From a virus: DNA of 64,000 nucleotides. The DNA is taken from the UHGV virus genome UHGV-0298424; one strand, written 5' to 3'. Of the stretch, positions 5,295-58,205 are shown piece by piece (the stretch's first letter is position 1; the number at the start of each line of letters is the position of its first letter). Under the pieces are notes generated by a model. That model was not told the origin of the DNA. It searched no databases and saw nothing but the letters and a program-made list of their open reading frames with translations. Both the position numbers and the translations under genes were made by a program.

Positions 5295-5663
5295 TCATTT
5301 CAACAAAACAAGATGAATTTGGTATTCGTCATCAGCAGGAGAAGAATAATCGCCAGCTTCAGGTAACGTTATATCTCCCAGTAGAGCGTGGAAGGGTAAT
5401 CCACGAGCAGCCTCAACTATTCGTACAAGCGGAAAACCTGTTCTTTTAATCCAATTGTAATCAACAAACATAACACCACCAGGACTTCCCGAACCTTCCC
5501 ACACACGAATTTCCACAGTCTTTCCCGAAAAGTTGGCAAGTACGGTGCGTAGTCCTAATCGCACATAACTGGGAAAGGGTACTTCAATAACTTGTTTTGG
5601 TAAAACAAATTCAGGGAATTTAAAACCGAAACCTTTGGGTGTACTAAAAAACTGAGCTTGCAT
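5295..5663 (-). CDS. hypothetical protein
   Basis: 122-aa ORF. Confidence 0.4.
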   Translation of the reverse strand: MQAQFFSTPKGFGFKFPEFVLPKQVIEVPFPSYVRLGLRTVLANFSGKTVEIRVWEGSGSPGGVMFVDYNWIKRTGFPLVRIVEAARGLPFHALLGDITLPEAGDYSSPADDEYQIHLVLLK

Positions 5664-5694
5664 GATAATTCTCCTTTAGGGTAAAAAATGAAAA

Positions 5695-5722
5695 TACCCT
5701 ACTCCTGTCTAGGAGTAGGGTA
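5695..5722 (-). terminator. intrinsic terminator hairpin
   Basis: TACCCTACTCCT-loop-AGGAGTAGGGTA followed by T-run on minus strand. Confidence 0.55.
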
Positions 5723-5726
5723 GGTA

Positions 5727-6386
5727 TTACATACGGGTAACTGAATCCCAGTAATCGCGAAGATATTCTTGATCTTCAGGATCTTTCGGTGTAGCCGGAA
5801 TGTGGCCGTCAAACTCAAACGGAATTACAGACAGAACATCCGCAATCTCGTAACGCTCGACTTCCAGTTCAACTTTCACCCAGTCACCGACGCTGGTACT
5901 ACTACGCATCTCGGTGAGGAGATCGTTAAAGTCAGCCGAAACTTCAATTGCAGGGTGTCCGGTGGTGATAGTGAAAATATCAATATCCCAATGCTTAGCG
6001 CCTTTATCGGCTAATTCACCCGGTTCTAAGTGGATACGTTTCACCAGGTGAGCCAAATAACCGTCCTTGTAAAAAGAGAGTGCAGAACTAATACCGATAT
6101 CCGAATTCTCTTCAACCTTTCCGTCCAGGAATTTACGCTTAAGCGTTAGCTGTGCTGTACCGTCTTCTTTAATACGGATACGACGACGCCCACCTTCTAT
6201 CGGCATGAGAATGTCCATGAACATCTTAGTGGACTGTGCGTGTAGCCAATCCCATCCCGCTTGCGTGGGTTTTACCCAAACGCAATATTCCTTTTCCACT
6301 TCGCGTTTAATGGATTCGCCTGCAACGCGAATAACCTCTTCTTCCTGCGCTTTTTCCAATTGCGCAAGGGTATCGAATAATCCCAT
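5727..6386 (-). CDS. hypothetical protein
   Basis: 219-aa ORF; terminator hairpin 5695-5722 after stop. Confidence 0.45.
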   Translation of the reverse strand: MGLFDTLAQLEKAQEEEVIRVAGESIKREVEKEYCVWVKPTQAGWDWLHAQSTKMFMDILMPIEGGRRRIRIKEDGTAQLTLKRKFLDGKVEENSDIGISSALSFYKDGYLAHLVKRIHLEPGELADKGAKHWDIDIFTITTGHPAIEVSADFNDLLTEMRSSTSVGDWVKVELEVERYEIADVLSVIPFEFDGHIPATPKDPEDQEYLRDYWDSVTRM

Positions 6387-12077: not shown

Positions 12078-13574
12078 TTATTTCTTTTTCGTCAGGAACT
12101 TCGGTTCTAGTCCATCGACAGCCATACCCAGAATAGTACGTGCAGTCAGTGTACGTTTACCACCTTTGGTTTCCTGGTCTTTAAACATCCAGTATTCTAC
12201 CGTGTTATCCAGAATTTCATTCCAGTCCCACTTCTCGTCAATCAGTTTGTAAATCTCACCCATGCTGAGATGATACTTCATTTCAAGACGGTGGTAGTTG
12301 TTTTGCATATACGCGATTGCCGCCGTGATTTCTAAAGCGCGACGTAAGCGTGCGTTATCAGAAATCATATCACGGATTGTCGTACGTTGGAATTTCACAC
12401 CAGGTAAAATGTCCAGTTCTTTGATAGAACCGCCACTACCGCTTGACGTAAAACCAAAGTCTGACTTCTTCAGCGTGTCACTTAAATAGTGCCACAGGCT
12501 CAGGTGATATAACAGACCCATTTCCTGAGAGAAGATCATCTGGAATTTCACACCGGTGTGACCACCCTTCGCACGATACTGAGTAAAGGTGATAATCTTC
12601 AAGTCGTTTACCGAAGCATTCATCGCTTTAGAACGTGACGTCGGATAAAGTTCTTCGTTAACACCGGTCTGTGCGTTATAGCTCTGGTCTTTCTTCAACT
12701 CCCCTGATTTCGTCGCGACGATAAAAGAGTTTGTTAAAAAGCTAAGCTGACGGCGAGGAATACCTGCGAATTTTAAATCGTCGTTGGCATCGTCAAGAAT
12801 TTTCGCATTTGCTTTTTGTGCCTGACGACCACCTGCCATCGCTTTCCCAGAGTCATCGGCCATCTGTGCCACGAAACCCATATAGAAACCACCGCGTGCA
12901 AACGCAGACGGCCAGCGGCTCATCATGTTCGATTTTTGCAGTGCATCGTGGGCGTTCAGGATGTTCTGATCAGAATCACCGATATCTGTTTTTGCGTGTT
13001 TGTCTTCCAGCGAACTGGAATGCCACTCTGACAAAGAGTCGATAGAATAAAGCCAGGGGTCCAGGATTTCTTTTAACTTCCGACGAACCGGATCGGGGAA
13101 CGGCGTTACACGGGTTTTACCAGACATATACTGCTTGAAGCGTTTTTCAACTTCGTCACGAATATAATCACTGTAATACTGTTCCCCAGGCATTACATCA
13201 GAACCGACCAGGTTATAACGACCTTCGTGGATGAGTTCCAATACGGACGTTCCGTCGTCGATACCGTTGGCGTTCATGGCAGAGATGTACCCAGTTTCTA
13301 AACGATCGAGGGCGGCGGACACTTCTGTATCGTACTTAGAACCCCACTCTGCTTTATAACGTTGCAGGATTTGGAAGATACAGAAATCTAACAAAGTGGA
13401 TTTAAAGGTGTTACCGCGACCTGCGAAACCCATGATGTGGGCAAAACCACCGTTAAGGTAGTACAAACCATCTTCACCTTTTTCGTAGTTACCTAAGGCA
13501 TGATCCATGATGGTGTAAACGTTAAAACGTGGACGAATTACTTCACCGATAACTTGCTTAGTTGGGCCTGCCAT
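12078..13574 (-). CDS. hypothetical protein (498 aa)
   Basis: long ORF; GRGNTFKST is only a weak P-loop-like match; function not recognised. Confidence 0.45.
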   Translation of the reverse strand: MAGPTKQVIGEVIRPRFNVYTIMDHALGNYEKGEDGLYYLNGGFAHIMGFAGRGNTFKSTLLDFCIFQILQRYKAEWGSKYDTEVSAALDRLETGYISAMNANGIDDGTSVLELIHEGRYNLVGSDVMPGEQYYSDYIRDEVEKRFKQYMSGKTRVTPFPDPVRRKLKEILDPWLYSIDSLSEWHSSSLEDKHAKTDIGDSDQNILNAHDALQKSNMMSRWPSAFARGGFYMGFVAQMADDSGKAMAGGRQAQKANAKILDDANDDLKFAGIPRRQLSFLTNSFIVATKSGELKKDQSYNAQTGVNEELYPTSRSKAMNASVNDLKIITFTQYRAKGGHTGVKFQMIFSQEMGLLYHLSLWHYLSDTLKKSDFGFTSSGSGGSIKELDILPGVKFQRTTIRDMISDNARLRRALEITAAIAYMQNNYHRLEMKYHLSMGEIYKLIDEKWDWNEILDNTVEYWMFKDQETKGGKRTLTARTILGMAVDGLEPKFLTKKK

Positions 13575-13987: not shown

Positions 13988-14743
13988 ATGAATGTAAATC
14001 CACTTGCAGCGTTATCTAGCTTCGCCGCTAAAGCGTCTGCAATCTTACCGAAAGGCTTTAGTGGCCCTCAACAAGAGATTGCATTAACCACTTATGACGA
14101 GATGTCGGACGTTTCCAAGTGGATGCAACAAGAAAAATTCCTTCACTTTGCGGGAATGTTGGTTATCGTTCCACCTGGGTTTAATACCTACGTGATGGAT
14201 CATTTGAACCGCTTAGAATCCGTATGGAGTTCACTGCAAAACATTTATACGGGTATTCTGTTCCCGGTCGATAAACAACTTTCGGCCCTTACACATGATG
14301 TGGGTGTACTGTCATTACCGATTGGTTTCCGTTACAAAAATGTTAATATACCTTTACGTAACGTTAACCCGAAAGATCTGGTTAACTTGTTAGCGAAATC
14401 GTACACTAACAACGTTATTGACCAGCGACCAATCGAGAAGACGTATCACAGCGCGTCCGAAATTGATGTTGCGTTCAATCGTGCTAAGGCACTGAACGTT
14501 GAAATCACAAAACGTCTACGGACAAACATCGACAAGTCAATCGAGTCTATTCGCACTACGTCAGAAATCTTGTCAGAACAAAACATTCATCCGAATGTAG
14601 CAAAAGAACTGACGATGATGTTAGATTTTGCTTCCGATTGGGTGGAGCTGTTTGGTTTGTTCATGAAACAGGTTAACGAATTAATCGAATGCCTGAACGT
14701 TACTGCCGAACGCTTAAAAGCGCTTAAGGCAAACAAAAAATAA
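13988..14743 (+). CDS. hypothetical protein
   Basis: 251-aa plus-strand ORF ending at bidirectional terminator 14756-14781. Confidence 0.4.
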   Translation: MNVNPLAALSSFAAKASAILPKGFSGPQQEIALTTYDEMSDVSKWMQQEKFLHFAGMLVIVPPGFNTYVMDHLNRLESVWSSLQNIYTGILFPVDKQLSALTHDVGVLSLPIGFRYKNVNIPLRNVNPKDLVNLLAKSYTNNVIDQRPIEKTYHSASEIDVAFNRAKALNVEITKRLRTNIDKSIESIRTTSEILSEQNIHPNVAKELTMMLDFASDWVELFGLFMKQVNELIECLNVTAERLKALKANKK

Positions 14744-14755
14744 AAAAGTAAAGCT

Positions 14756-14781
14756 ACCCCTAGACCACACGGTCTAGGGGT
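14756..14781. terminator. bidirectional terminator between convergent genes
   Basis: ACCCCTAGACC-ACAC-GGTCTAGGGGT flanked by A-run and T-run. Confidence 0.55.
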
Positions 14782-14788
14782 AAACTAT

Positions 14789-15688
14789 TTATTTCCCACG
14801 ATAAAATCCAGAGATGTAGCTTGGCGCTATCCATCGCCATTCGCGCCAACGCATTTCTGACATTTTACCACACCATACACGCTTCCAATGAGCACGACGG
14901 ATATGTGCTGCGCAATAAATCGCCAAACAAACCTCGTGTCCCTCCTTGCGTTGTTGTTCTATATCTTCCCATTGTACCGGACTTACGTCTAAAACGACCG
15001 CTTCACTACGTGGGCGAATCTCTGTATCAGGAACATAACGAATGGTCCTCCCGCGAAATTCTTTCTTCTCACGTTCAGTTCGTTTAATTCGCGATGAAAG
15101 ATATAGTCCGATATAGACGGCGTCGAGTAGTCGTTGATTCTCCTTAACCGAAGTAAGGAGCGGCTTTAACTCCACGAAATCATCATTACTTTTATCGATC
15201 GTGTAAATCTCAAACTCCATGTATACCGACTCGTCATGTTCTTCGCATGACATCACAAAGAGAACTTCTTCACCTTCGTAAAGACGTCTTCCGATAAATA
15301 ACGTGATTGGACATTCGTCGAGATTTACGGTAACCGAGAAAGTAAATGAAGGGATGGTTTCTATCCAGAAGTACGGGATATTTTTTAGTCTCTCAGTTTT
15401 TGCTAAGAGCGCCATCAGTTCTTCATCCGAGATGATTTCAACAGCAGCGTATTGCCATCCTAGTCCCAGGGACTGCTTAATCAGTCTGGGAATCTGTTCG
15501 GTAACGCCATATTCACGATAGGTCGGATCTTTAACTGGCATAAACGTTACGGGTATTTGTCGTTTATGCTCGTTAATGAACCGAATAAAACGGCACTGAT
15601 CTAATCCGTGAATTGTTTGGTGTGCTTTTTCTATCTGTTCGCTCATGCGTCTTAGCGCTTTCCCGTAAAGTCTATTATTCGTTGTCAT
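14789..15688 (-). CDS. hypothetical protein, AHIRRAHW-motif family member A
   Basis: start at ATG 15688 with AGGAG SD; C-terminal AAHIRRAHWKRVW basic/Trp motif shared with upstream paralog. Confidence 0.45.
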   Translation of the reverse strand: MTTNNRLYGKALRRMSEQIEKAHQTIHGLDQCRFIRFINEHKRQIPVTFMPVKDPTYREYGVTEQIPRLIKQSLGLGWQYAAVEIISDEELMALLAKTERLKNIPYFWIETIPSFTFSVTVNLDECPITLFIGRRLYEGEEVLFVMSCEEHDESVYMEFEIYTIDKSNDDFVELKPLLTSVKENQRLLDAVYIGLYLSSRIKRTEREKKEFRGRTIRYVPDTEIRPRSEAVVLDVSPVQWEDIEQQRKEGHEVCLAIYCAAHIRRAHWKRVWCGKMSEMRWREWRWIAPSYISGFYRGK

Positions 15689-15713
15689 TTTAATGCTCCT
15701 AAACACTTTTAGC

Positions 15714-16640
15714 TTAATTGTGGGGTACGTAGCCACGGACAAATGTAGGTGGAATCCAACAAAGTTTTCTTTTTCTTTCCCCATCTCTTGGACCGACCCA
15801 ATATCTGCGCCAGTGCGCGCGACGAATATGTGCGGCCTTGGCGTGTTTGATACCTTCCATGGTTTTCAAGTCGGTGTTAAATCCCTTTAGATATTTCACT
15901 TGTTCTGGTGTGATGTCTATTTTAACGTCACGTTCACGAGGTTTGATTTCGTGACTTATGCTACCATTCTTTTTGATTTCTTTGAACTTAATGTCATTGA
16001 AAGACCCTCTGAGATTGGGCGGGATTAGCGTACAGAGAAATATCAACGATATGGCGGTTTTGGCCAGTGATAACCATAACGTCTTCTCTTGTTCGGTCTG
16101 TACGCCAGTTGTATAATCGATTTCAACAAGCCCGTTTCCAACACTACATATCTCTAACGAGCAGGTGGCGATTGTGGTAACGCCTTCTGTTAACCCGTAA
16201 TCAGTATTTGTAGCAATTATAATAAACCTTCTATTCCCATTTTTTCGATAACCGAGAAAGAAAGTCTCATCTTCTTTACCTACATCGATTGCTACAGTCC
16301 AAGTAGGTATAAAGTCTAACCACTCTTCAGGGAATTTACTGGGCATCTCAGTCTCGAAAACAAGTTCTCTAAGTGCTCGATCGGATATTAAGGAAGCACC
16401 ACCGTATAGCCATCCAATTGCCAATGTTTGAGCGTGAAGAGAACGGAGATCTTTGAGACCTAACTCAGCGTCGTAGGGTATAAAGGCATTAGTTAAATGC
16501 TTACGATTCTTTTTTATCCATTTCGAGACGGGATTTTCTTTTGTTTGATTTTCTTCCATGACATTTTCTAGATGCTGACTCCCCATTTGTCTAAGGCAGT
16601 CTTTAACACCTTTTACTTTTTTACTTTTGTACAAATACAC
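15714..16640 (-). CDS. hypothetical protein, AHIRRAHW-motif family member B
   Basis: 308 aa; C-terminal KAAHIRRAHWRRYWVGP motif and similar central architecture. Confidence 0.45.
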   Translation of the reverse strand: MYLYKSKKVKGVKDCLRQMGSQHLENVMEENQTKENPVSKWIKKNRKHLTNAFIPYDAELGLKDLRSLHAQTLAIGWLYGGASLISDRALRELVFETEMPSKFPEEWLDFIPTWTVAIDVGKEDETFFLGYRKNGNRRFIIIATNTDYGLTEGVTTIATCSLEICSVGNGLVEIDYTTGVQTEQEKTLWLSLAKTAISLIFLCTLIPPNLRGSFNDIKFKEIKKNGSISHEIKPRERDVKIDITPEQVKYLKGFNTDLKTMEGIKHAKAAHIRRAHWRRYWVGPRDGERKRKLCWIPPTFVRGYVPHN

Positions 16641-16699
16641 GGTATATTCTCCTAAAATGGTTAAAAATAAAGTTACCCTAGCCGAAGCTAGGGTGTCTA

Positions 16700-17188
16700 T
16701 TAGTCGATTTTGACGTAGTCGGGATAGTTAGCTTTTAACCACTCCCATAGCTGTAAGGAAAGTAGGTTTTCACTACGTTCGATGATTTCCATGATATCTG
16801 CCACGTAAGACCCACCAATCCAAATTCGTCTATAAAAATTTTCCCATTCCGGTTCTGTATAGGGAACAATCGGTGTAGGAAATTTCTCTAAATTGTACGC
16901 ATCGGTAACTTTTCTTAAGAACTGATACCGGCAATCGCGAAGGCGTTGTCGAACGTCTGTTTCTGTTATGTGGTCGTTTGATGGATTGAAGAAATCAAAC
17001 AGGTTAGCTGTGTATGCTATTATGCTCTGGCAACTGAAGTAGGCCGCAGCGTAATCTGCCATCCAAGGAGTGGAAGCAACCATTGGGGCCAACTTTTCTT
17101 CTATTTCTTTTCTTACACGCGCACCGTGATTGAGAAATTCATGCACAATATCACTTTTACTAAGATTGATAATATCATTTACGTTCAT
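16700..17188 (-). CDS. hypothetical protein
   Basis: 162-aa ORF. Confidence 0.4.
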   Translation of the reverse strand: MNVNDIINLSKSDIVHEFLNHGARVRKEIEEKLAPMVASTPWMADYAAAYFSCQSIIAYTANLFDFFNPSNDHITETDVRQRLRDCRYQFLRKVTDAYNLEKFPTPIVPYTEPEWENFYRRIWIGGSYVADIMEIIERSENLLSLQLWEWLKANYPDYVKID

Positions 17189-17189
17189 T

Positions 17190-17714
17190 TTACTGTCCTA
17201 AAATTGGGGTGAGTCTGTCTGCGGTGTTTAACAATGCTTTTGTAATTTCGTGGTTGGTCTCTTTTAGGATGGCGCAGCAGAGAGTGGTATAAACCTCGAT
17301 TGCTAAACCGATTTCTTGTTCAGTCAGACACGGTTCGGTGCCGCCAATCCCGTAACGCTGCGCTGCATACTCAATTTCAAGTTTCAAACGTTTTCGTAGT
17401 GCCTCGTCATCAGTTAAACGCGCGCACGCCCGATCGAAACGTCTATTGTAAGCCTCGATCTTGTGGACAATTTCGCGTCGCAGTTGGTCGACCTTTACGT
17501 TATCATCAAGAGTGATGGTGACGTTGTCAACTAAACAGTAATGCACCGCGTGTCGTAAGTTGTGTAATGTGGCGGCAGTAACGACCCGCTCCTGATGGTC
17601 GCTAAAGCCGTGGGCACCACAGAGCTTGCGTGCAACCGCGCCAGAGATTTTCTCCTCTAACGCTATCGGCGTGGCAATGGTTGTTTTCTTACGAAGCTGA
17701 ATTAAAATATCCAC
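17190..17714 (-). CDS. hypothetical protein
   Basis: 174-aa ORF. Confidence 0.4.
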   Translation of the reverse strand: MDILIQLRKKTTIATPIALEEKISGAVARKLCGAHGFSDHQERVVTAATLHNLRHAVHYCLVDNVTITLDDNVKVDQLRREIVHKIEAYNRRFDRACARLTDDEALRKRLKLEIEYAAQRYGIGGTEPCLTEQEIGLAIEVYTTLCCAILKETNHEITKALLNTADRLTPILGQ

Positions 17715-17716
17715 GG

Positions 17717-18259
17717 TTATACTCCTTTAGGTTGTCCGTATTTTGACGATAGGTAGATGAGTTCAGCATGGCAGATTTTCTCAACTAACCCGAGTGTCTC
17801 AAGGAAAATATCCCGGATACGGGACATCGTTTCGTTGGTAAGAATATCGCTCCAACATGTTGTGTCTATTATATCCGTCGTTGAAGATTGGCGCTGCAAT
17901 ATTGCGACATACACTTCGTCGAGGCTATCTGGTGCATTATTCTGTAAGTAATGGGCGGCATGTAGAAAGGCTTTCTCAAGAATCAGCTGAATATCCGTAT
18001 CGGGATCAGTTACCCGTACTAAATGCGGGTATGTCATAGCCGAACTGATTTTTATCACTAACTGCTCAACGAGGTTATTCACCATCGCTTCTGAATCCAG
18101 GATAGTAATATCAGCTCCATCGTGTTCTTCAGAAATCTTATTCTCATGCACTGCTATCGCATCGTGTAATTCAAACGCAACGCGACTTCGCATCTCACTT
18201 AACACTTTGTTTAATTTGTCCCGTGACTCGCTGAGTGAGAAATCGATAAGTATTTTCAT
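17717..18259 (-). CDS. hypothetical protein
   Basis: 180-aa ORF. Confidence 0.4.
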   Translation of the reverse strand: MKILIDFSLSESRDKLNKVLSEMRSRVAFELHDAIAVHENKISEEHDGADITILDSEAMVNNLVEQLVIKISSAMTYPHLVRVTDPDTDIQLILEKAFLHAAHYLQNNAPDSLDEVYVAILQRQSSTTDIIDTTCWSDILTNETMSRIRDIFLETLGLVEKICHAELIYLSSKYGQPKGV

Positions 18260-19002
18260 TATACGTACTCCTGATAAATTGGCCGACCCCGATCTTCTCG
18301 AATCTGGCAGTATGTTACAACAATACCGTTAGGGATTTGTGCGCCGCTGTCTTCAAGGTAAATAACGCCCGTAGCTTCACAGAGATAAAACGACCACAAT
18401 CGTGAGATACCAAGCCGTGCGTTCTCGTAGTGACTGAATGGCCAGAAACCACAGTGAATCTCATCATAGTCTCCCCGTTCTATCCCGTAAGCAATCATTT
18501 CTTTTTCCCACAACGTACATTCAGCGTCGTAAGTCGAAAACCAGAAACCAACGAGATTCTTTGTCCGCTTAACGTTCATTAAGTCGTTATAAATGGGAAA
18601 GAGTGCTTTATTGAAATTTTCTAACATCTCTGGAGAGAATAGAAAATTCATGTAGTATTCTAGCCATTGATAAACGGCTTCCCAGACATCTTCAGAAGAG
18701 AAATGTTCGAATACGGCGTCATCGCAATCGTAGTTATCGAAGATCCCTGAGAGATCTATTTCGACGACGCCGCGAAGGTCAAAGTTTCTGTTGGTATTGA
18801 CAGCGTCAATAACCTCAGCGATGAGACGAGTAAAGACGATTGTGCAGGCGGTTTGTGCGGTATAAAAGAATTCTCCTTGTACGGTTGACCACTTCGGGTC
18901 CTTCAAATGTTCATTGAAGTATTGTGGCCAAATTTTATAAAAGATTCCCTCGAACAACGAGGGATTGATACGTTGTAATTGAGGGACATAAACTTTTAGC
19001 AT
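18259..19002 (-). CDS. hypothetical protein
   Basis: 247-aa ORF. Confidence 0.4.
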   Translation of the reverse strand: MLKVYVPQLQRINPSLFEGIFYKIWPQYFNEHLKDPKWSTVQGEFFYTAQTACTIVFTRLIAEVIDAVNTNRNFDLRGVVEIDLSGIFDNYDCDDAVFEHFSSEDVWEAVYQWLEYYMNFLFSPEMLENFNKALFPIYNDLMNVKRTKNLVGFWFSTYDAECTLWEKEMIAYGIERGDYDEIHCGFWPFSHYENARLGISRLWSFYLCEATGVIYLEDSGAQIPNGIVVTYCQIREDRGRPIYQEYV

Positions 19003-19038
19003 TCTAATAACTCCAATGGTGTTACACCTGGATAATAT

Positions 19039-19707
19039 CTATCTAAGAATATTTTTAATGAAAAAAGGATCGGCTGTAAACTCCTTCACTTGTGAGTCAT
19101 AACCCGAATGTATTTGATCGCTACTGAGCAAATACTGGTCTAGGTCGTGCGGAAGAATCCAAGAATCACCTTGCTTAAAAATACCATAATCTGCTGTTCC
19201 TGCGGAAAAAATGATTTCCTCTGGAAACGAATAGACACGGCGTAAGGCAAGATCGGATGGCTTTAACACGATTAATCGAACGGGATGTTGACTGACTGCC
19301 TCTTTAATAAACTGTTCACGATTAAACCAAATTATTTTTTCGGGGTAAGTTTCGAATTCAGCCCATGCCCGCGTGATAACTAATTTGGAAATCTTTCTCA
19401 ATTCTTCAGAACGCTCTGCGTAGCCGATGCACTCCTTGCGTACTTCATGATTTTCTATCGATGTTGTGAATTTTTGGAATAGGTGTTGTTGGAAAAAGCC
19501 GTTCTCCGGGATATCACAACCCGCGTTGTATAGTGCAATGATCTCCCACAACAACGAAAGAGAAAACACAAATGCTAACTTTTCCACAACTTCCCAATCT
19601 TCGGAGTAAGGGGCTTTAAAGCCCCAATACTGCCGTGCGTTATACATAAAGTGAGTTTGTAAAAACCGAGGGGCTTTTGACAAGACCTCACTATAAACGA
19701 TCAGCAT
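19039..19707 (-). CDS. hypothetical protein
   Basis: 222-aa ORF. Confidence 0.4.
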   Translation of the reverse strand: MLIVYSEVLSKAPRFLQTHFMYNARQYWGFKAPYSEDWEVVEKLAFVFSLSLLWEIIALYNAGCDIPENGFFQQHLFQKFTTSIENHEVRKECIGYAERSEELRKISKLVITRAWAEFETYPEKIIWFNREQFIKEAVSQHPVRLIVLKPSDLALRRVYSFPEEIIFSAGTADYGIFKQGDSWILPHDLDQYLLSSDQIHSGYDSQVKEFTADPFFIKNILR

Positions 19708-21221
19708 TCAAGCTCCTTATCCGTCAATATTCGTTTGTTTGAATAATAGCCGCACCACAAACCATGATATTTTTCCCCGATATAAACCAACGCGTATTCG
19801 ATATACTGCCGTTCTGGACGACGTACAGCCACGTAAAACCGCCCTTCCGGTTCTTTGATACGGTTGATTTCCGTACGCGTCGGTATGTCGATACCTCGAG
19901 TAAGGATAGCTTTAACCTTGTTTTTACTACCAGGGATCTTGATGGTTACGTCAAAACCTTTATCTACGTTACGATAAATGTCTTTCTTCGGCTTACCTTT
20001 CTCATCGTAAAGTACGTCAGTAATGTCATTCAACACTACTGAGTTTTTCCCTTCCATGGCATCGCGTAACCAACCTGCAAGCTCATCACGAATCGCAATA
20101 CAACGATAAGATAATAGCGCAGGACGAAGAATTCGTGTAATCGAAAGATCTTCAAACATCCACAGGTTTTTGTCTTCACTAAAATGCATCCGATCGATAG
20201 GAATGCCGTTAGCAGCGGCTTCTGCGAACTTCTTGCGCTTTACGAATAAGTTAAAAACAACGGCGATTGGATCAAATTGACGTAAACGGGGCACCCCTTC
20301 CCACGCTTTCGCAGAATGGGTATTTACCAACTCGTATACGTTATCCCACGGTTCTTTGGTAAACATTACGCAGAATTGTGCATCTGGAATGTACTTACCA
20401 ACGAAGACGATATCATCCTTCTGTTTTGCGTGGTTTCCACCGAACATGTAATAAAGTTTATTACCGTTAACTGTAACAGTGGGGTGAGGCTCGTTCACCA
20501 TCGGGTAACAGAACTTCGTAACACAGATATCGGGAAAAGTGGACAAATTGACACCCTCACCAACAACTTCCGGTTGCTGTTCTTCCTCAGGCAGTTCGTC
20601 TTTTGACCAATACGGTGTATAGTCTAACCCCTCCCCTCGGGCAGAGATAATTGAGCCTTTCCGCGCTAACTCGTCTGCGCGTTCGTTTCCATAACGTCCA
20701 GAGTGGCCTTTAATTTTAAGGACACGAACACCTTTCCCTTCTTTCTTTAAGCGCTGTTTAACCACCCACATCCGTTGGATTAATTCCAGATTCGCAATAG
20801 GTGTACCGTCCGCACGACGCCAACCACGTGCTGCCCAACCATCAATCCAGTCGTTATACGTGTTGACAACGTAAGATGCGTCGATATAGATAACGTAGTT
20901 TTTGGCAACGAAGGGGGCGTGTTCGAAGACGGTCAGGAAAGCCACGAGTTCTGCAACGTCGGAGTGTGACATTTTTGGTACAGGAACAACTCCGTCAATA
21001 AACTCCACGGTTTCTGGTAAAGGCGGAAGTTTTTCATCTTTGTTTATCTGGCGGTATCCTGACGTCGTAATCCCCTCGGGAATAGTGGGATGGCGGTAAA
21101 CCCGACCATCCTCAATCGCTTCACGATTAAATAAGTATCCATGAATCCCCGCCCCTGTACCGAGCGGGGAAGTCAAATGGCTACCGTCCGTGTAAATTAC
21201 TGCAACATCAACGTTCTTCAT
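19701..21221 (-). CDS. ribonuclease H domain protein with about 320-aa C-terminal extension
   Basis: N-terminus IYTDGS, ELVA, IDASYV, KGHSG..NERADELAR matches RNase HI catalytic motifs; C-terminal half not recognised. Confidence 0.65.
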   Translation of the reverse strand: MKNVDVAVIYTDGSHLTSPLGTGAGIHGYLFNREAIEDGRVYRHPTIPEGITTSGYRQINKDEKLPPLPETVEFIDGVVPVPKMSHSDVAELVAFLTVFEHAPFVAKNYVIYIDASYVVNTYNDWIDGWAARGWRRADGTPIANLELIQRMWVVKQRLKKEGKGVRVLKIKGHSGRYGNERADELARKGSIISARGEGLDYTPYWSKDELPEEEQQPEVVGEGVNLSTFPDICVTKFCYPMVNEPHPTVTVNGNKLYYMFGGNHAKQKDDIVFVGKYIPDAQFCVMFTKEPWDNVYELVNTHSAKAWEGVPRLRQFDPIAVVFNLFVKRKKFAEAAANGIPIDRMHFSEDKNLWMFEDLSITRILRPALLSYRCIAIRDELAGWLRDAMEGKNSVVLNDITDVLYDEKGKPKKDIYRNVDKGFDVTIKIPGSKNKVKAILTRGIDIPTRTEINRIKEPEGRFYVAVRRPERQYIEYALVYIGEKYHGLWCGYYSNKRILTDKELEC

Positions 21222-44366: not shown

Positions 44367-47300
44367 ATGGCTGTCGTCTTAGACCCACACTTCAAAAAAC
44401 CGGGGAATAAAATAACCGGTGAAGCGGTCGCCGTCATTGGTACGAAATACCGAATGTTGGTACCTGCCCACGCCCCTTTTTTCACCACATCCCTGGTGGT
44501 CAAGAGCGGCGGCAAAATACTGACCTTAGGCGACGATTACGTTATTACACACCCGTACGAGACTGGTATGTTGCGCACAGCCTATCTCATTCACGGGATG
44601 ATTTGGATTGTTAATGACAAATACAAATCGAACTTTACTGTAGATTACCATGCTGTTGGTTGTGGCCAGGCTACTCAGCAGCAGATTACCGCAGAGCGCG
44701 AGCTTAATAAAGGTAAATACCCCTCCGCGTGTCAGTGGGACACCGTTATCGGAGACGTTTACTTTCCACCGGTCGATATCCAGTTCGATTGGGAGAATTG
44801 GAAAGGTGAACTGGAGCTAATGCAGGCCATTGCTGGGGTAGGCGATTCGTTAGGGGAAGTCGTGAGTCGTCTTAACCCAATCGCACGCAATACACTGGAT
44901 TTGGAATATCGTGCTAATAGCAAGGTTATCACTTCCGAGCAGTATGCTGCGTACGATAATAAAGGCGGTTTCACCTACAACACAGCTCGCCACCGTTATA
45001 GCCTGAGTTATAAAGCGACAACCTTTAACAACTATTCCCTGTCGGTGAAACACAGAATTCCTGCTATTCTGCCAGACATGACAAAGTTGAATCCGAACGA
45101 ACAGATCGATTGGATGCTCTGTTATGCCAACGGCGGTGCAAGTATTCTACGGTTACAGCTAAAACAGCGCAAAATCTCACTGGTCTTAACTGTCGCTATT
45201 GGCAGTGGTTCAACAAACTACGATTATACTTTAATCAACGGTTTAACTGACGATGAGTTAAAAAACGATATCGATTTTAGTGTAACCCGACAACCCGGAA
45301 ACGGCGTTTACGTAATCGTAGTAAAAACAAATAAACAGACCATGGATTATACGTTCAACGTCGATACGCCGCCTGATGAGTTCTCGGCAGGGTATTCGAA
45401 AACGGATGTAGCCAAATGGTTGAAGTCTAAAACGAACATTAACCTGAACTGGTATGCGGCTGAAAACGATTATGTTCAAATTCGTTCTTTACCCGGCGCG
45501 CCGGAGCCTGACGTCGATAACGATGTTTACCAGTTAATAGTTAAGTATCATCAGTTGGTTGAGCAGCTGTATCGTAATGCGCCTGCGCACGAACACGTTA
45601 CACGTAAGGACAACCCACACACAGATACGTGGGGTCCGATCCGTGCGTTAGAGTTGAACGGTATTGCGTCGGATGCAGCATTAGCTTACGGAAAAACGAA
45701 GCCGCAGTTAACGGATTATGTTAATGCTAAGTATCCAACACAAGCGACGCTGACAGCACAAAAGAAACTATTGCGCACGTCAGCTACGAAAACGGCTAAC
45801 GGAACTATTGGAACGCTGCCCGGTTTTACTTCGTTCACGACGGAAGTTGACCCGGTGTCAATGTCGAAATACGTGAGTCCTCGTTTTAGCGAAAGCTACG
45901 TTAGTAATGGTCACAGGTATCACGGTGCGCTTCGTTACACAGGAACGAAGAGTGGATTCGCCACTTCTTTTAATGCGGTACCTGCTAACCTGCAAGATAT
46001 TGACTTTATTGTTACCGGACGTAAAACAGCGTCTGGTAATGAAGCTGTCGGTACGGTTAGCCTACGTTTCTATCAGAAACCTGGTACTAACTCTGGAAAA
46101 TTTATCCAGCTTACAGGTGAAATTTCTGCGGGTAAAGTCGGCGTTAAGTTGGAACTGAACGGTTTTTCGAATCCCACACCGGAAGTTCAGTATCTTTCCC
46201 AAGCTCCTAATCCAGCAATACCGGATGGGGATTTTACGCTGCGTTTTCAACTGAAACGCACAGGGAACGTGTTTGATGTCGTTATTACCATAAACGGCAA
46301 GACATACAGTGCACGTGTTAACTTCACTAACATGGACGCTGCACTAGAAGCATTGGAGAATAGCCACCACTTTAAATCATTGATCAGTAATGTTGCTGAC
46401 AATGTCACTATTAGCTCGGGGAATAAAGGTAACACGGTTACCATTAAGAAAGCGCCCGACGTCGTTGACGGGACCAGTTTAGGTGCCCAGTTTGTCGTTG
46501 ACCCGAAATCCATTAAGTTTATTGGACAAGGTTCAACCGAGGTTAATGCGGGGAATAACCCTGTAACGTTTCAAGCAGGTACTAACCAACTTATATTGTA
46601 TCCTGATGATCGTGGGTTACAGTGGCGTGGTAAGAAACTCTTAGACCCCACTACCGTGGCTCCGTATCTGCCAGGCAATACCGCGGGCGGTACGGGATTA
46701 TTCTACGGTACATCTACAACCACGGTAGAACTTACCGGTAGCGGGATAAAAGCATCGCCGTTCGTAGCGACTTTTATTCTCCCTACCGCGACCGATACAA
46801 CAGCCCTGGCAGCTTGGCAGTTGACCGATGAGTTTGGTACCGCTGAAAACCTTGCAGCAACGCCAGCACTGATTGAAAAACTCGATGCGGAGTTCACCGG
46901 TAAATTAGTTGCGGTTAAATCGTACATTAACGACATGCAACTTACCAGCTCGGTCACTATCGACAAAATTACCTTTGGTTTAGGTAACGTTGCGAATACA
47001 CCCGATGTCAATTTACCGATTTCTACAGCACAACGTGCGGAGTTAGATAAATACTCGCCTAAAGTTCACCAACACCCGTTTACCGCTTTTGGTACTGGGA
47101 ACGCAACCACAGCGAAACGTGGTCTGATTAAATTTGGTCTGGATGTGGATGATGCGACTTTAGCACTCGATGGGAGTGTGGTAATGGCGCAGACTTCCCA
47201 GATTGAAAAATTGGAAAATGCTGTCGGTGGCGTTGACTCGGGTGCTCGCGTTGACATTATTCGTTTCGGCAAGTCTGGTGACGACTTAATTAACGTTACG

Positions 47301-48689
47301 GTTAAAGACAAAATTCTGGCTATGCTCCCCGCTTCAACGTACTTTGTTGGTGGTGAGACGTATGACGTACCGTTAATGTCGGTTAACGTCACTGAACGTT
47401 TCCCGAATCCGAAAACGTTGATCTACGCAGGAATTTTTGTTGATATTGTTGACAACAAAGCGAAGTATGTTATCCACGACAGCTACAATCAGGCTGAAAC
47501 GGATACCATGACGCGCGTGGGAAGACTCGTTGTCAATGAGCTTTCCGAAGTGGACGTAGTGGAATTGCGTAACGTGACACGATTAGGCGAATTCCACGAG
47601 CTGAAAGACCACATCGCTAATGACAACGCACACATTCAACGTTCTGCTTCGCGCGCAGTATTGGGGTTAAGTGATTTAACAGTAGGTGCACCTTGCTGGG
47701 CTTCTGGACTCCAGGCAGTAGTGCGTGGTGAAGCAGATTGGCGTTATGTTGTTCGTGGACAGTATAAAGCATTAGACGGGGTGAAATACGACCAGATCGC
47801 ATCAAAGTGGATTTTCGATGCGAAAGGGGTAAGTGACAACGTTCACGGGTTTATTCACAACTTATTCCCGACTTTCAAAAACGCAGGAATGCGGGTAAGT
47901 TGGGAAACAGAAAGCAACGCAAAAACCGGAACAGTGTTAGAAACTGTTTTAGGTTGTTGGAAGAACACCGACGGCGAGTTTATGCGGTTGTCATTACTTA
48001 TCACTCGCGGTTATCGTTTAACTGACAGTAACGGTGAATATTGTTACGCAGGGTTCGGTTTGAACTTCGGTAGCGGGAAATCGGTAGTGGTAGGTTTCAC
48101 ACCAACGAAGCGTGTTACGCCTGCACCGTGGAGTTCATTACGACCTGACGTAACGTTTACCCACACCCGTGGTGCAAACAACGCAATAACGTTTAATGCA
48201 TCGCTGACTTTAGCTGGCACTGTGTATACTATCGTGGTGTTTTTATCCGCGACAGATAAATACGTAAGCTGTACGGCGGCAGGGGGAACTACGCAGAAAA
48301 TCCCATTAGCCGACCGTTTAACCGGGTTCAATATCGAACCTATCGTTAATGATCCGTATACCCCTATTTACTACGGTTTAGGGGGACTTTATGAGGATGA
48401 GGTTCGTGCCAACATCCGCTCTACAGCAGACAGCGCAACTGCGAACAAAGTCTACGGTACGTTGTTGGACTATGTTAGCAACTATTCCTCATTAAATCGA
48501 GTACGCGTCATGGAATTGTCCGGTGTCAGCTCAGACCCCGAAACGCTTAATGCGTTAGTGGCAACTGAATTTAATAACAACCTGGCAGATTACGCTGCGT
48601 TACCGATACCTCCTTATCTTAACAAGGAGCGCGTAATGTCGTTTATCGACACCGACAATAAAGTGCAGGCGGTAATCATTCGCGATTAA
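44367..48689 (+). CDS. tail fibre protein (1440 aa)
   Basis: TAGGAG SD; N-terminal P-x-x-PFF...G-DY-x-x domain shared with the next three genes; KITFGLGNVANTPDVNLPIS fibre-type repeat. Confidence 0.65.
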   Translation: MAVVLDPHFKKPGNKITGEAVAVIGTKYRMLVPAHAPFFTTSLVVKSGGKILTLGDDYVITHPYETGMLRTAYLIHGMIWIVNDKYKSNFTVDYHAVGCGQATQQQITAERELNKGKYPSACQWDTVIGDVYFPPVDIQFDWENWKGELELMQAIAGVGDSLGEVVSRLNPIARNTLDLEYRANSKVITSEQYAAYDNKGGFTYNTARHRYSLSYKATTFNNYSLSVKHRIPAILPDMTKLNPNEQIDWMLCYANGGASILRLQLKQRKISLVLTVAIGSGSTNYDYTLINGLTDDELKNDIDFSVTRQPGNGVYVIVVKTNKQTMDYTFNVDTPPDEFSAGYSKTDVAKWLKSKTNINLNWYAAENDYVQIRSLPGAPEPDVDNDVYQLIVKYHQLVEQLYRNAPAHEHVTRKDNPHTDTWGPIRALELNGIASDAALAYGKTKPQLTDYVNAKYPTQATLTAQKKLLRTSATKTANGTIGTLPGFTSFTTEVDPVSMSKYVSPRFSESYVSNGHRYHGALRYTGTKSGFATSFNAVPANLQDIDFIVTGRKTASGNEAVGTVSLRFYQKPGTNSGKFIQLTGEISAGKVGVKLELNGFSNPTPEVQYLSQAPNPAIPDGDFTLRFQLKRTGNVFDVVITINGKTYSARVNFTNMDAALEALENSHHFKSLISNVADNVTISSGNKGNTVTIKKAPDVVDGTSLGAQFVVDPKSIKFIGQGSTEVNAGNNPVTFQAGTNQLILYPDDRGLQWRGKKLLDPTTVAPYLPGNTAGGTGLFYGTSTTTVELTGSGIKASPFVATFILPTATDTTALAAWQLTDEFGTAENLAATPALIEKLDAEFTGKLVAVKSYINDMQLTSSVTIDKITFGLGNVANTPDVNLPISTAQRAELDKYSPKVHQHPFTAFGTGNATTAKRGLIKFGLDVDDATLALDGSVVMAQTSQIEKLENAVGGVDSGARVDIIRFGKSGDDLINVTVKDKILAMLPASTYFVGGETYDVPLMSVNVTERFPNPKTLIYAGIFVDIVDNKAKYVIHDSYNQAETDTMTRVGRLVVNELSEVDVVELRNVTRLGEFHELKDHIANDNAHIQRSASRAVLGLSDLTVGAPCWASGLQAVVRGEADWRYVVRGQYKALDGVKYDQIASKWIFDAKGVSDNVHGFIHNLFPTFKNAGMRVSWETESNAKTGTVLETVLGCWKNTDGEFMRLSLLITRGYRLTDSNGEYCYAGFGLNFGSGKSVVVGFTPTKRVTPAPWSSLRPDVTFTHTRGANNAITFNASLTLAGTVYTIVVFLSATDKYVSCTAAGGTTQKIPLADRLTGFNIEPIVNDPYTPIYYGLGGLYEDEVRANIRSTADSATANKVYGTLLDYVSNYSSLNRVRVMELSGVSSDPETLNALVATEFNNNLADYAALPIPPYLNKERVMSFIDTDNKVQAVIIRD

Positions 48690-48702
48690 GGAGAATTTTT
48701 TG

Positions 48703-51700
48703 ATGAAAGCGTATCCTTACGATCCTCGGGGGACGAAAACCGAGAATCACTTCTTAGAGGAGCGTATCATCGGGTCAGAAAACAACAACGATCGGGTGGT
48801 GATTTTAGACCATCGCCCGTTCTTTGAAGATTTAGTCGTCAGACAACCAGGTTCAACCACCCCACTGAGTCGTGGGGTGGACTACGAACTGCAATATCAG
48901 CTGACGGAACTGGATGACTCGGTAGCAGCCAACGTGTATTGTGGGGTACACCTTATCAACCCTTCCATCAAAGGCATCGTAACCTTTGAAGGACAAATGC
49001 TCGGCGGTACGTTCTACGACCCGTTTGTTGATATTCTCGATGAGCTGGTGAAATATTTGAATAACCCAGTCAGCGCTGACTGGTTGTTATTAGAAGGCAG
49101 ACCGTCGTTATACCCGGCTACGCCTGCGGCAACGTCTTGGGCGGATTTGCTAAACAAAAAATATTTAGCGTCGGCAGTCCACGATGTTGAATTGAAAACC
49201 GATGACGCTAACCAGTTAATTAAAGATAAATTAGCCGAAGTTAAAGCGTTAGTCGCCGCGCTGGGTAAAGAAATCGAGACATTTAACTACCCGGCACACA
49301 TCGCGGAAACCAACCCGCACCAAACCACTTCTGCACAGATTAACGCACATCCTGTTAACTTGAAAACACCCGACACCTTTATGGCGTACGGGTTAAAGTT
49401 GAAAGCATTGACGGATGAGCTGAAAGCGTTTCGTTTACCACAGTCAGTTATTGACACGTATATCTCCCACTGGATTTCTTCAGAAGTACGGGGTGTGTTT
49501 AACTGTACGGTGTCAGGAAACCGTGCACAGTTCCGCTCAAAAAACGGTGAGTCAGAAATCATTTTTGCGAATGATGGCTTTACGTTAAAATCCAACGGTT
49601 CTGTAGTGTTAGCGGTAGGGCATCTGGAAGGAACGGGTGCAGGACGTTACATTAACTGGCGTGCTGGTAAAAACATCCTACGTATCGAGTCAACAGGCGA
49701 TGCTTTAGGGATGAACAAACTCACCCTAAACGGTAACCCGTTACTGACCACCACAGCATTGATGGAATACCAACAAGATCCTGATGCTGGCGGGAGCGGT
49801 GGCGGTGACCCCGACGACTCAAAGGTGTACATCGAAGGCCGTAATGGGATTAGCTTCACCGGTAAAGGCTCTCGGACCGATCCTATCGTGGGTACTATCG
49901 ACCCGACGAAAGCGACAACCACTGAAAAAGGTGTTGTTAAGCTTAAAACTGGTAAAGGTACAGAAATCGTTGGGGTTGCAGCAACTCCGGCTTCGTTAGC
50001 GCCATATGCGACCGACCTATCGGGGTATGTGGCTAAAACGACCATGATTAACGGTAAGCCAATGAATGACGGCTCCAGGACAATCACGAAAGCTGACCTG
50101 GGGTTAGGGCAAGCGGATAATACCGCAGATCTTGACAAACCGTTGTCAACCAAGTTAACTGAGGCGGTTAGCGGTCTAGCAGATGTGGGCCATCATCACG
50201 ATTGGTCGGAGTTAGGTATTTATAAAGCTTCTCAATCTGTTTACGGTATTGGTCGTTATGCAACTAACCAGAACGGTTTGGTTGAAAACCGTGCAGTGGT
50301 ACCGAACATCCTAAAAGAGCTTTCGGCACGTTTAAGTGTGGTCGCTGCGGCAATTGCAAATGCGAAAGAAGGAACAGTCACGGATTTCGCTGCTGTAAAA
50401 GGCGCAGACTGGCGATTTAATAGCCAGGGTACGGCAATCTCCGTTCAGGATTTGAAATATTTCTATTTGCTGGACGGCATGAAAGGTGACAGTACCGTTA
50501 CCGGTGCGATTGACCTGCAAACCACTCCGATGTTTAACTGGTTCTCACCGAACAACCAACTTGAGCTGACTTGGCCTACGGGTAAGGTGAGTAAAGGTAC
50601 CGGGATTAGTTGGGATGGAATTGTTGATCCCCCAACAATGGGGTTTCAGTCAGTTCCGGTAGGTAAAAGCGCCACCCAGATGGGCGTTCAGTCCGTTGTA
50701 TCGGTACTGGCTAAAACGCGCGTCAAAGCTCGTCAGAAAAGGCTGTTTGTTTATGCCGCTGGCGGTGGGACAATAACCGTTTATGTAAATGGTGTTGTAG
50801 GCGCTACTGGTGCGTCGCCATTGTTAATGAACTATGGAACGTCTCCAGATGTTGAAAACTACACAATTGCTGTTAAAGCAGAGTGTAGTGACACGGCTAA
50901 ATCTGCAGCGGTACAGTTCGAAGTTTACGATGGTGACTACCCCGTTTATTTCAGTGGTCCTGAAACGCGTGTAGAGCTTCTCCAGGAGTTTGTCACAACG
51001 CATGTAGGTATTCGTCATTATTTGTACGTTAACATGCTCACAGGCTCTCTGTATTCGCGTGCTGAACCAGTTCAAGGATTTGAGGTCGATCCAGAACGCG
51101 GATATATCGGTTATGTTGATATCGTTCCTGGTCAGTCTTACGCGAATAAAACCGTGGGATTTGAAACCACGTTTGATTTCGGGAAAAGTGCGGAAGTTAG
51201 CGAGCATAATAGTATTCGTAAGGCACACGGTCTCAACGCTGCGGACTGGTCACTGACGGATAACCCACGGTTGCCGTTATTAAACCGTGCTATTGCCGAA
51301 CCAAGAGCGTGTATCTTTAGGAAACCGTTAGCAACCGCTACAGGGGATGTTTTCCATCTTGTCAGTCGTGGTCTTTATACTTACGCACACAACCAAAACG
51401 TGAAGTCGAGTCTTCAATACGTTGTGATACCTGAAGGTGCTACGCCGTATTGTTGGTTTACACCATTTAACCCGAAAGAAAACAACGCACCGACATTCGA
51501 AGGCTCGTTTGCGTTCGATGTTGACGATGTTGGTGGAACGCAAGCCCTTGCTGCTGCGCCGGATTTGGTTCTATGCACGTCAACGCAAGGTAGCAGCGTT
51601 AAACGTCGCTATCTGCGCATTGACCTAACTACCAAAACCTGTAAGTTGGGGATTGGTTCCCGTTCAGATTCTGCTGTTACGGATATTCCGTTAGTGATGG

Positions 51701-52946: not shown

Positions 52947-52978
52947 ATCCATTTTATTTAAAAGTAGGAGTCTTTACG

Positions 52979-58165: not shown

Positions 58166-58205
58166 CGCCACGAGACAAGGACGTCTCGGATTAAGGAGAG
58201 TGGCC

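What the first reader, a model, noticed from the sequence alone, without database searches (positions are those of the whole stretch)
14789..16640. Tandem paralogs with a basic Trp-rich AHIRRAHW(R/K)R C-terminal motif
Two adjacent genes encode about 300-aa proteins with similar architecture and a conserved C-terminus (KAAHIRRAHWRRYWVGP / CAAHIRRAHWKRVWCGK) that I do not recognise as a known domain. The Arg/His/Trp composition suggests nucleic-acid binding.
Basis: seen in the sequence. Interest (0 to 1): 0.45.

Follow-up and report, generated by a model that had tools for sequence, protein, structure and literature searches.

The report
Tandem AcrVA2/FinQ-like genes, jumbo phage
The two neighbouring genes are diverged copies of a known mobile-element protein family (AcrVA2/FinQ), whose founding member shuts off one chosen protein by destroying its mRNA while it is being translated; the "unknown" AHIRRAHW motif is that family's essential C-terminal signature.

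Summary
Two adjacent minus-strand genes, B (15714-16640, 308 aa) and A (14789-15688, 299 aa), are paralogs (23% identity, E 7e-20) that share an AHIRRAHW C-terminus. The motif is not an unknown domain. It is the conserved HxRxxH signature of the AcrVA2/FinQ family (Pfam PF26125 "AcrVA2-like").

- **Sequence:** a family profile matches crystallised AcrVA2 over its full length (E 1.4e-40).
- **Functional residues:** all five residues shown by mutagenesis to matter in AcrVA2 (W79, D89, H286, R288, H291) are present in both copies.

The window comes from a jumbo phage syntenic with Asesino and SPN3US-like phages (Chimalliviridae), which carry one copy between RNase H and UvsX. The tandem pair is specific to an Enterobacter-associated subclade.

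The copies keep the C-terminal effector module (40% identity) but have diverged in the N-terminal and middle domains (15%). They also evolve faster than their neighbours.

Most likely they are two polypeptide-specific, translation-coupled mRNA knock-down factors with different, non-Cas12a targets. That mechanism is inferred, not shown. They are new members of a known kind, of modest interest.

The parts
15714..16640 (-). Gene B: AcrVA2/FinQ-family protein, 308 aa. GTG start at 16640, AGGAG ribosome-binding site 8 nt upstream. Positional orthologue of Asesino gp235 and the single-copy SPN3US-like gene. W77, D87, H271, R273 and H276 correspond to AcrVA2 W79, D89, H286, R288 and H291.
14789..15688 (-). 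Gene A: second, more diverged AcrVA2/FinQ-family paralog, 299 aa. ATG start at 15688 with AGGAG ribosome-binding site. W78, D88, H262, R264 and H267 are the equivalent residues. The 331-aa ORF reaching 15784 is probably not the real start.
15807..15830 (-). Codons for the AHIRRAHW motif of B (residues 270-277).
   Evidence: translation. Coordinates computed from the start at 16640. Residue correspondence.
14864..14887 (-). Codons for the AHIRRAHW motif of A (residues 261-268 in 299-aa numbering).
   Evidence: translation. Coordinates computed from the start at 15688. Residue correspondence.
16675..16694 (-). Terminator-like hairpin ACCCTAGC-TTCG-GCTAGGGT plus T-run, just upstream of B and after the preceding 162-aa gene.
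   Evidence: Identical hairpin at the same place in L003.
14754..14783 (.). Bidirectional terminator-like hairpin (13-bp stem CCCCTAGACC...GGTCTAGGGG) between the stop of A and the convergent + strand gene 13988-14743.
   Evidence: Conserved in L003.

Best explanation
Genes B and A are two diverged tandem members of the AcrVA2/FinQ protein family, carried by an SPN3US/Asesino-like, probably nucleus-forming, jumbo phage of Enterobacterales. By analogy with AcrVA2, each protein would use its variable N-terminal and middle domains to recognise a specific protein, probably as a nascent chain on the ribosome. The conserved C-terminal beta-module carrying H-x-R-x-x-H-W would then trigger loss of the mRNA being translated, switching off synthesis of that one protein. 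Because the recognition domains of A and B have diverged to about 15% identity while the effector module is kept, the two copies most likely have different targets. Those targets are most likely not Cas12a. They are more likely a host defence or housekeeping protein, or a rival mobile element's protein, as with FinQ and the F tra genes. Shown here: paralogy, family membership by sequence and fold, conservation of all five functionally tested residues, gene organisation, and fast divergence. Inferred: the mechanism, nascent-chain recognition, and the nature of the targets.
For: Family membership:
- phmmer of B against the PDB hits AcrVA2 at the motif, E 1.4e-4.
- A 47-sequence family profile hits AcrVA2 7ci1_A over residues 7-318 of 323, E 1.4e-40.
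- A profile built only from AcrVA2 plus 34 distant members, with no window-clade sequences, picks exactly these two ORFs out of 625 in the window: B 8e-30, A 5.8e-19.
- hhalign of the window-clade profile against FinQ gives 97.2% probability, E 3.8e-11, over 218 columns.
- Close orthologues (63-98% identical) carry Pfam PF26125 'AcrVA2-like'.

Functional residues:
- AcrVA2 H286/R288/H291 are needed for mRNA down-regulation but not for binding. W79/D89 give partial loss (Marino et al., bioRxiv 10.1101/2022.11.29.518452).
- These align to H271/R273/H276 and W77/D87 in B and the equivalents in A.
- Across 138 family sequences, conservation is H 99%, R 100%, H 100%, W 91%, D 70%.

Modular divergence: A versus B identity is 15% (N-terminus), 33% (W/D helix region), 15% (middle domain) and 40% (C-terminal domain). 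Marino et al. describe the same pattern for AcrVA2 versus FinQ.

Conflict-gene behaviour: between the window and the E. ludwigii relative, B is 67.5% and A 62.6% identical, against UvsX 96.6%, the 251-aa gene 92.4% and RNase H 85.7%. B and A diverge independently: 89% versus 63% against L007.

Non-Cas12a target:
- Relatives infect Erwinia, Salmonella, E. coli and Enterobacter.
- Marino et al. report that homologues are typically found without Cas12a.
- Erskinevirus and Seoulvirus belong to Chimalliviridae, whose phage nucleus blocks degradation of the phage genome by CRISPR-Cas systems (Al-Shayeb et al., PMC7162821).
Against: - No function has been tested for any jumbo-phage member.
- Identity to AcrVA2 itself is only 17-19%. 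The window-clade profile on its own aligns to AcrVA2 only over the C-terminal 39 columns.
- The AcrVA2 mechanism rests on one preprint, and how the mRNA is destroyed is unknown.
- FinQ was originally interpreted as causing Rho-independent transcription termination, not translation-coupled decay (PMC8744291).
- The gene sits at a fixed position in a replication/recombination block across three phage genera. This could mean a role in the phage's own programme rather than in conflict.
- The family consensus HWH is HWR in B and HWK in A.
- Only B was modelled. The fold of A is inferred from sequence.
Confidence: 0.6

Rival explanations
1. They are genuine anti-CRISPRs against type V-A (Cas12a), i.e. 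functional orthologues of AcrVA2.
For: They belong to the same family and keep the same essential residues. Al-Shayeb et al. proposed that huge-phage proteins clustering with AcrVA2 may act as Acrs.
Against: Identity to AcrVA2 is only 17-19%, and the N-terminal recognition region is not alignable from the window-clade profile. The isolated relatives infect Enterobacterales, where Cas12a is not typical (my own knowledge, and Marino et al.). There is no acr/aca-type neighbourhood: no HTH gene, and the neighbours are UvsX, RNase H and conserved hypotheticals. Related genera are chimalliviruses, whose nucleus already excludes DNA-targeting CRISPR nucleases.
Confidence: 0.06
2. They act directly on nucleic acid without recognising a polypeptide. 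This would be as sequence-specific RNA- or DNA-binding proteins, or as termination factors that truncate particular transcripts, which is how FinQ was first described and is.
For: The C-terminal module is rich in Arg, His and Trp. FinQ was reported to terminate F tra transcription at multiple sites. The window clade is closer to FinQ than to AcrVA2.
Confidence: 0.2
3. They are housekeeping components of the phage replication/recombination or virion programme, unrelated to inter-genome conflict. The AcrVA2 fold is simply reused.
For: The position between RNase H and UvsX is fixed in Erskinevirus, Seoulvirus and the window clade.
Against: They are much more divergent than the flanking core genes. 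Copy number varies from 1 to 2. Family members sit in unrelated contexts in RisingSun and Y3, and occur on plasmids and temperate phages. tblastn found them in only some chimallivirus genera.
Confidence: 0.08

Closest known systems
AcrVA2 (Moraxella bovoculi prophage; PDB 7CI1/7CI2)
   Different: Only 17-19% identical. The N-terminal region is not alignable without intermediates. Encoded in a lytic jumbo phage of Enterobacterales rather than a Moraxella prophage next to acrVA1. Present as two diverged tandem copies. HWH is replaced by HWR/HWK. A Cas12a target is unlikely.
FinQ (fertility inhibitor of IncI1 plasmids such as R820a/R621a)
   Same: Same family. It is the closest named relative of the window clade (hhalign 97.2%, E 3.8e-11, 218 columns). 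It occurs in enterobacterial mobile elements that lack Cas12a, and it lowers mRNA of a rival element's genes.
   Different: About 25% identity. Plasmid-borne and single copy. Its known target is the F tra operon. The mechanism in the older literature is described as transcription termination.
Asesino gp235, the SPN3US-like single-copy gene, and PHROG 6160 (all uncharacterised)
   Same: Positional orthologues: same slot between RNase H and UvsX, followed by the same convergent 251-aa gene. B is 28-31% identical to them.
   Different: Those phages have one copy. The window clade has two, and copy A is only 20-24% identical to any of them.
Ribosome-dependent mRNA interferases (RelE/YoeB) and TTC5-mediated tubulin autoregulation. 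These are functional analogies only.
   Same: Translation-coupled destruction of the mRNA. In the tubulin case it is triggered by recognition of a nascent N-terminal peptide, an analogy drawn by Marino et al..

Membership tests
AcrVA2-like (Pfam PF26125; AcrVA2/FinQ family) | Significant sequence match to the family or to AcrVA2 over most of the length | tested here: met
   The profile containing the window proteins matches 7ci1_A with E 1.4e-40 over residues 7-318. An independent profile without window-clade sequences gives B 8e-30 and A 5.8e-19, covering model positions 65/74-314 of 319. Direct phmmer of B gives E 1.4e-4 at the C-terminus only. Direct phmmer of A finds nothing.
AcrVA2-like (Pfam PF26125; AcrVA2/FinQ family) | Pfam model PF26125 hit | tested here: inconclusive
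   Precomputed PF26125 'AcrVA2-like' hits are recorded on orthologues 63-98% identical to A and B. However, hmmscan of A, B and P0001-3 against the local Pfam-A copy returned no such hit. Presumably that copy lacks the model.
AcrVA2-like (Pfam PF26125; AcrVA2/FinQ family) | AcrVA2 three-domain fold (helical N-terminal domain, alpha/beta middle domain, small four-stranded C-terminal domain) | tested here: met
AcrVA2-like (Pfam PF26125; AcrVA2/FinQ family) | C-terminal HxRxxH motif (AcrVA2 H286/R288/H291), essential for mRNA down-regulation | tested here: met
   B has H271/R273/H276 and A has H262/R264/H267. The positions are 99-100% conserved in 138 family sequences.
AcrVA2-like (Pfam PF26125; AcrVA2/FinQ family) | Conserved N-terminal-domain Trp and Asp (AcrVA2 W79, D89) | tested here: met
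   B has W77/D87 and A has W78/D88, with the same 10-residue spacing.
Anti-CRISPR type V-A (functional Acr) | Inhibits Cas12a or binds the Cas12a N-terminal LSKT peptide | not testable with these tools
   Needs a co-expression assay.
Anti-CRISPR type V-A (functional Acr) | acr-locus context (adjacent aca HTH regulator or other acr genes) in an element whose host carries Cas12a | tested here: not met
   The neighbours are UvsX, RNase H, an exoribonuclease and conserved hypotheticals, with no HTH or Aca domain. The hosts of relatives are Erwinia, Salmonella, E. coli and Enterobacter.
FinQ fertility inhibitors | Sequence homology to FinQ | tested here: met
   hhalign of the A2 profile against FinQ from pESBL-blaCTXM-55 gives probability 97.2%, E 3.8e-11, 218 columns.
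FinQ fertility inhibitors | Encoded on a conjugative plasmid and inhibits F-plasmid transfer | tested here: not met
   The location is a jumbo phage genome. The activity is not testable here.

The most novel reading that the evidence does not exclude
In one lineage of nucleus-forming jumbo phages, an AcrVA2-type 'nascent-chain-guided mRNA silencer' has become a fixed, syntenic part of the genome and has been duplicated. The two copies have re-tuned recognition domains that silence two different cytoplasmic host or rival-element proteins. Candidates include RNA-targeting or translation-level defences, the only ones that can reach a phage whose DNA is shielded. That would make the family a general, evolvable protein-specific gene-silencing toolkit rather than an anti-CRISPR.
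Probability: 0.3. Interest if true: 0.6.

Novelty: new member of a known kind. Interest (0 to 1): 0.3.

Why it matters
AcrVA2 is so far the only prokaryotic protein reported to destroy a specific mRNA after reading the nascent polypeptide. Its effector chemistry and the targets of its roughly 1,800 homologues are unknown. This locus offers a natural comparison: two paralogs with the same effector module and different recognition domains, in a phage group with culturable relatives in E. coli, Salmonella and Erwinia hosts that lack Cas12a. That makes it a convenient place to look for non-CRISPR targets and to map which domain sets specificity. Practically, PHROG 6160, Asesino gp235 and the SPN3US-like genes annotated 'hypothetical protein', and RisingSun gp126 annotated 'putative mycothiosynthase', can all be re-annotated as AcrVA2/FinQ-like.

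Tried and rejected
- **No hits in local libraries.** The local Pfam-A, NCBIfam and PADLOC scans of A and B gave nothing meaningful. The weak AAA_19, Ap4A_phos_N and Csx19 hits are noise below the cut-offs.
- **No close phage in the collection.** Megablast of the locus against the phage collection found no match.
- **Shallow alignment failed.** The first AF2 run used a 7-sequence alignment and was unusable (pLDDT 50). It was replaced by a run on a 47-sequence alignment.
- **Word-index searches were thin.** They returned only 2-9 relatives. The exhaustive representative search was needed to reach the wider family (655 hits).
- **afdb50 was not available**.
- **Third copy rejected.** No other copy exists in the window.
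- **Mobile-cassette boundaries rejected.** I considered that the flanking CCCTAG hairpins mark the ends of a mobile cassette. They look like ordinary intrinsic terminators conserved with the orthologous locus, and I found no direct repeats or integrase to support mobility.
- **A position-mapping error.** The mafft --keeplength step dropped AcrVA2 insert residues. This was corrected by reading the alignment directly and by hmmalign.

Full report
**1. What is in the sequence**

The interval 14789-16640 holds two consecutive minus-strand ORFs.

- B runs 15714-16640 and encodes 308 aa. It starts at a GTG preceded by AGGAG.
- The longest ORF for A (14789-15784, 331 aa) overlaps B by 71 nt. The ATG at 15688 has its own AGGAG and gives 299 aa, which matches orthologues of 294-299 aa. 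I take 14789-15688 as gene A.
- The two proteins align over about 280 residues at 23% identity, E 7e-20.
- A six-frame scan finds H.R..HW nowhere else in the 64-kb window.

**2. Genomic setting**

The window has no close DNA match among 50,697 phage records. Its gene content and order are those of the SPN3US/Asesino group of jumbo phages.

- Nearby genes include a UvsX-like recombinase (12078-13574), RNase H (19701-21221), a Rv2179c-like exoribonuclease, an SbcC-like protein, thymidylate synthase, and three giant paralogous virion proteins.
- tblastn of B or A finds one gene per genome in Erwinia phages Asesino, ChrisDB and pEa_SNUABM_4/8, Salmonella phages SaP7 and JN03, and Escherichia phages EC001 and Lh1B.
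- In Asesino and SaP7 that gene occupies the same slot: RNase H, then several small genes, then the gene, then a convergent 251-aa gene, a 99-aa gene and UvsX.
- Erskinevirus and Seoulvirus are genera of Chimalliviridae. The window phage is therefore probably a nucleus-forming jumbo phage. This is inferred from synteny; no chimallin gene was looked for.
- The tandem pair recurs in a 222-kb circular Enterobacter ludwigii "plasmid" that is evidently a jumbo phage genome, and in four Logan contigs.

The duplication therefore characterises an Enterobacter-associated subclade. Isolated relatives carry a single copy.

The pair is bracketed by two terminator-like hairpins with CCCTAG...CTAGGG stems. 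They are the only two such hairpins in the window (0.01 expected by chance), and both are conserved at the orthologous positions in the E. ludwigii record.

**3. What the proteins are**

Curated local libraries gave nothing (Pfam, NCBIfam and PADLOC). PHROGs placed both in phrog_6160, function unknown.

The first lead came from the PDB. phmmer of B against PDB sequences hit AcrVA2 (7CI1) at the motif: HAKAAHIRRAHWRRYWVG against HTKRPHIRRGHWHGYWQG, E 1.4e-4.

I then tested whether this was more than a shared motif.

- A profile of the window clade searched against 1.84 billion representatives found 655 proteins at E ≤ 1e-3. Most are 300-380 aa, and many align from about residue 75 to the C-terminus.
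- A 47-sequence alignment of these with A and B matches AcrVA2 over residues 7-318 of 323, E 1.4e-40.
- As an independent control I built a profile from AcrVA2 plus 34 distant members only. It recovers exactly the two window ORFs out of 625: B at 8e-30 and A at 5.8e-19.
- hhalign of the window-clade profile against FinQ of an IncI plasmid gives 97.2% probability, E 3.8e-11, over 218 columns. Against AcrVA2 alone it gives 94% over the last 39 columns. The window clade is therefore nearer to FinQ than to AcrVA2.
- Close orthologues (63-98% identical) carry the precomputed Pfam annotation PF26125 "AcrVA2-like". The local Pfam copy apparently lacks that model.

**4. Structure**

A shallow-alignment AF2 model was useless (pLDDT 50). 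With the 47-sequence alignment, B folds confidently (pLDDT 82.4, pTM 0.81).

- The model has a helical N-terminal part, an α/β middle domain and a small four-stranded C-terminal unit that carries the motif.
- Foldseek against the PDB returns only AcrVA2: 7ci2_A at E 7.6e-11 and 7ci1_B at 9.6e-9, with the next hit at 0.04.
- No nuclease, HEPN, RelE or nucleic-acid-binding fold appears.
- In BFVD the matches are uncharacterised proteins of other jumbo Erwinia and Dickeya phages and of uncultured phages.

**5. The motif**

Marino et al. (bioRxiv 10.1101/2022.11.29.518452) showed the following for AcrVA2.

- It lowers Cas12a mRNA and protein more than ten-fold, independently of promoter and codon sequence.
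- This requires translation of the Cas12a N-terminus and its LSKT residues.
- H286A, R288A and H291A abolish down-regulation while leaving stable binding to Cas12a.
- W79A and D89A give partial loss.

In A they are H262, R264 and H267, with W78 and D88.

Across 138 family sequences these positions are H 99%, R 100%, H 100%, W 91% and D 70%. So the motif is the family's effector signature. What it does chemically is still unknown.

**6. How the two copies differ**

A versus B identity is 15% in the N-terminal 66 residues, 33% in the W/D helix region, 15% in the middle domain and 40% in the C-terminal domain.

- B groups with the single-copy jumbo-phage orthologues (26-31% identity).
- A is 20-24% identical to all of them. 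In a crude NJ tree it branches outside the clade formed by B and the orthologues, but inside the distant family members. This fits an old duplication with faster evolution of A, although I cannot exclude a separate acquisition.
- Between the window and the E. ludwigii relative, B (67.5%) and A (62.6%) are far more diverged than UvsX (96.6%), the 251-aa gene (92.4%) or RNase H (85.7%).
- Against another relative (L007), B is 89% identical but A only 63%. The copies therefore diverge, or are exchanged, independently.

This is the behaviour of conflict genes, not of core machinery.

**7. Most likely function**

The best-supported reading is that A and B are two AcrVA2/FinQ-type factors. Each would recognise a particular protein, probably co-translationally, through its variable domains, and trigger loss of that protein's mRNA through the conserved C-terminal module. 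The two would have different targets.

Cas12a is an unlikely target, for four reasons.

- The cultured relatives infect Enterobacterales.
- Marino et al. note that most homologues occur without Cas12a.
- There is no acr/aca context.
- A phage nucleus already blocks degradation of the phage genome by CRISPR-Cas systems.

The FinQ precedent, in which an IncI plasmid lowers F tra mRNA, suggests that a rival element's protein is as plausible a target as a host protein.

Shown here: family membership and the residue, domain and evolutionary patterns. Inferred by homology: everything about mechanism and targets.

Rivals:
- A true anti-Cas12a function (about 0.06).
- A housekeeping role implied by the fixed position (about 0.08).

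**8. Novelty and verdict**

The family is described. It has a crystal structure, a Pfam entry, a mechanistic preprint, and prior remarks that homologues occur on "megaphages" and in huge phages. The finding is therefore a new member of a known kind.

Three points appear undescribed in the searchable literature:
- The gene is a syntenic fixture of the Seoulvirus/Erskinevirus lineage.
- One subclade carries a diverged tandem pair.
- PHROG 6160 and several "hypothetical protein" or "mycothiosynthase" annotations belong to this family.

Interest is modest (0.3). It rests on the locus being a useful natural experiment for finding non-CRISPR targets of an unusual regulatory mechanism.

Noticed in passing
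window 14758-14779 and 16676-16693; L003 5943-5960 and 7844-7865: The only two CCCTAG-N(3-14)-CTAGGG hairpins in the 64-kb window (0.01 expected by chance) sit immediately upstream of B and downstream of A. Both look like intrinsic terminators. The same two hairpins, nearly identical in sequence, bracket the orthologous pair in the E. ludwigii record, although the genes themselves are only 63-68% identical.
   Followed up: partly
L003 (NZ_CP134650.1, Enterobacter ludwigii 'plasmid unnamed1', 222,441 bp, circular): This RefSeq 'plasmid' has the jumbo-phage gene order (exoribonuclease, RNase H, AcrVA2-like pair, UvsX) and is 57-97% identical in protein to the window across the genes compared. 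It is almost certainly a jumbo phage genome carried in, or co-assembled with, the isolate, and it points to Enterobacter as a likely host genus for the window phage.
   Followed up: partly
L004 4141-5657 (Erwinia phage RisingSun gp125-gp126): The AcrVA2-like gene of RisingSun is annotated 'putative mycothiosynthase', which is probably a misannotation. It lies directly after a GNAT acetyltransferase gene. AcrVA5, another Cas12a inhibitor, is an acetyltransferase, so the pairing may be worth a look.
   Followed up: no
window 44367-58165 (+ strand), also 58098-59405: Three consecutive giant paralogous virion-protein genes (1440, 1394 and 1728 aa; phrog_7557, 8078 and 7449, cross-matching each other and phrog_2163) are followed by a 435-aa relative. 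This is a large paralog array typical of SPN3US-like phages.
   Followed up: no
window 16700-19707 versus L003 and L007: The block of small genes between RNase H and the AcrVA2-like pair is a patchwork of conserved and hypervariable genes: 174-aa 86%, 247-aa 83%, but 222-aa 57%, 180-aa 61%, and 162-aa only 47% against L007. The 162-aa gene has no annotated counterpart in L003 (a 545-bp unannotated gap at 5450-5994). None of them has any Pfam hit.
   Followed up: partly
proteins P0001-P0005; The precomputed tables assign PF26125 'AcrVA2-like' to these proteins, but hmmscan against the session's Pfam-A copy returns nothing for the same sequences. The local library appears to lack this model, so a negative Pfam scan here is not evidence that a domain is unknown.
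   Followed up: partly
L005 4770-5789 (Erwinia phage Y3 gp246) and about 20 Y3-like 262-kb Erwinia phages: AcrVA2 itself hits a gene in the Sasquatchvirus/Y3-like jumbo phages by tblastn (E down to 2e-8), in a different context, downstream of an ssDNA-binding protein gene and a RecA gene. Several unrelated jumbo-phage lineages have therefore acquired family members independently.
   Followed up: no
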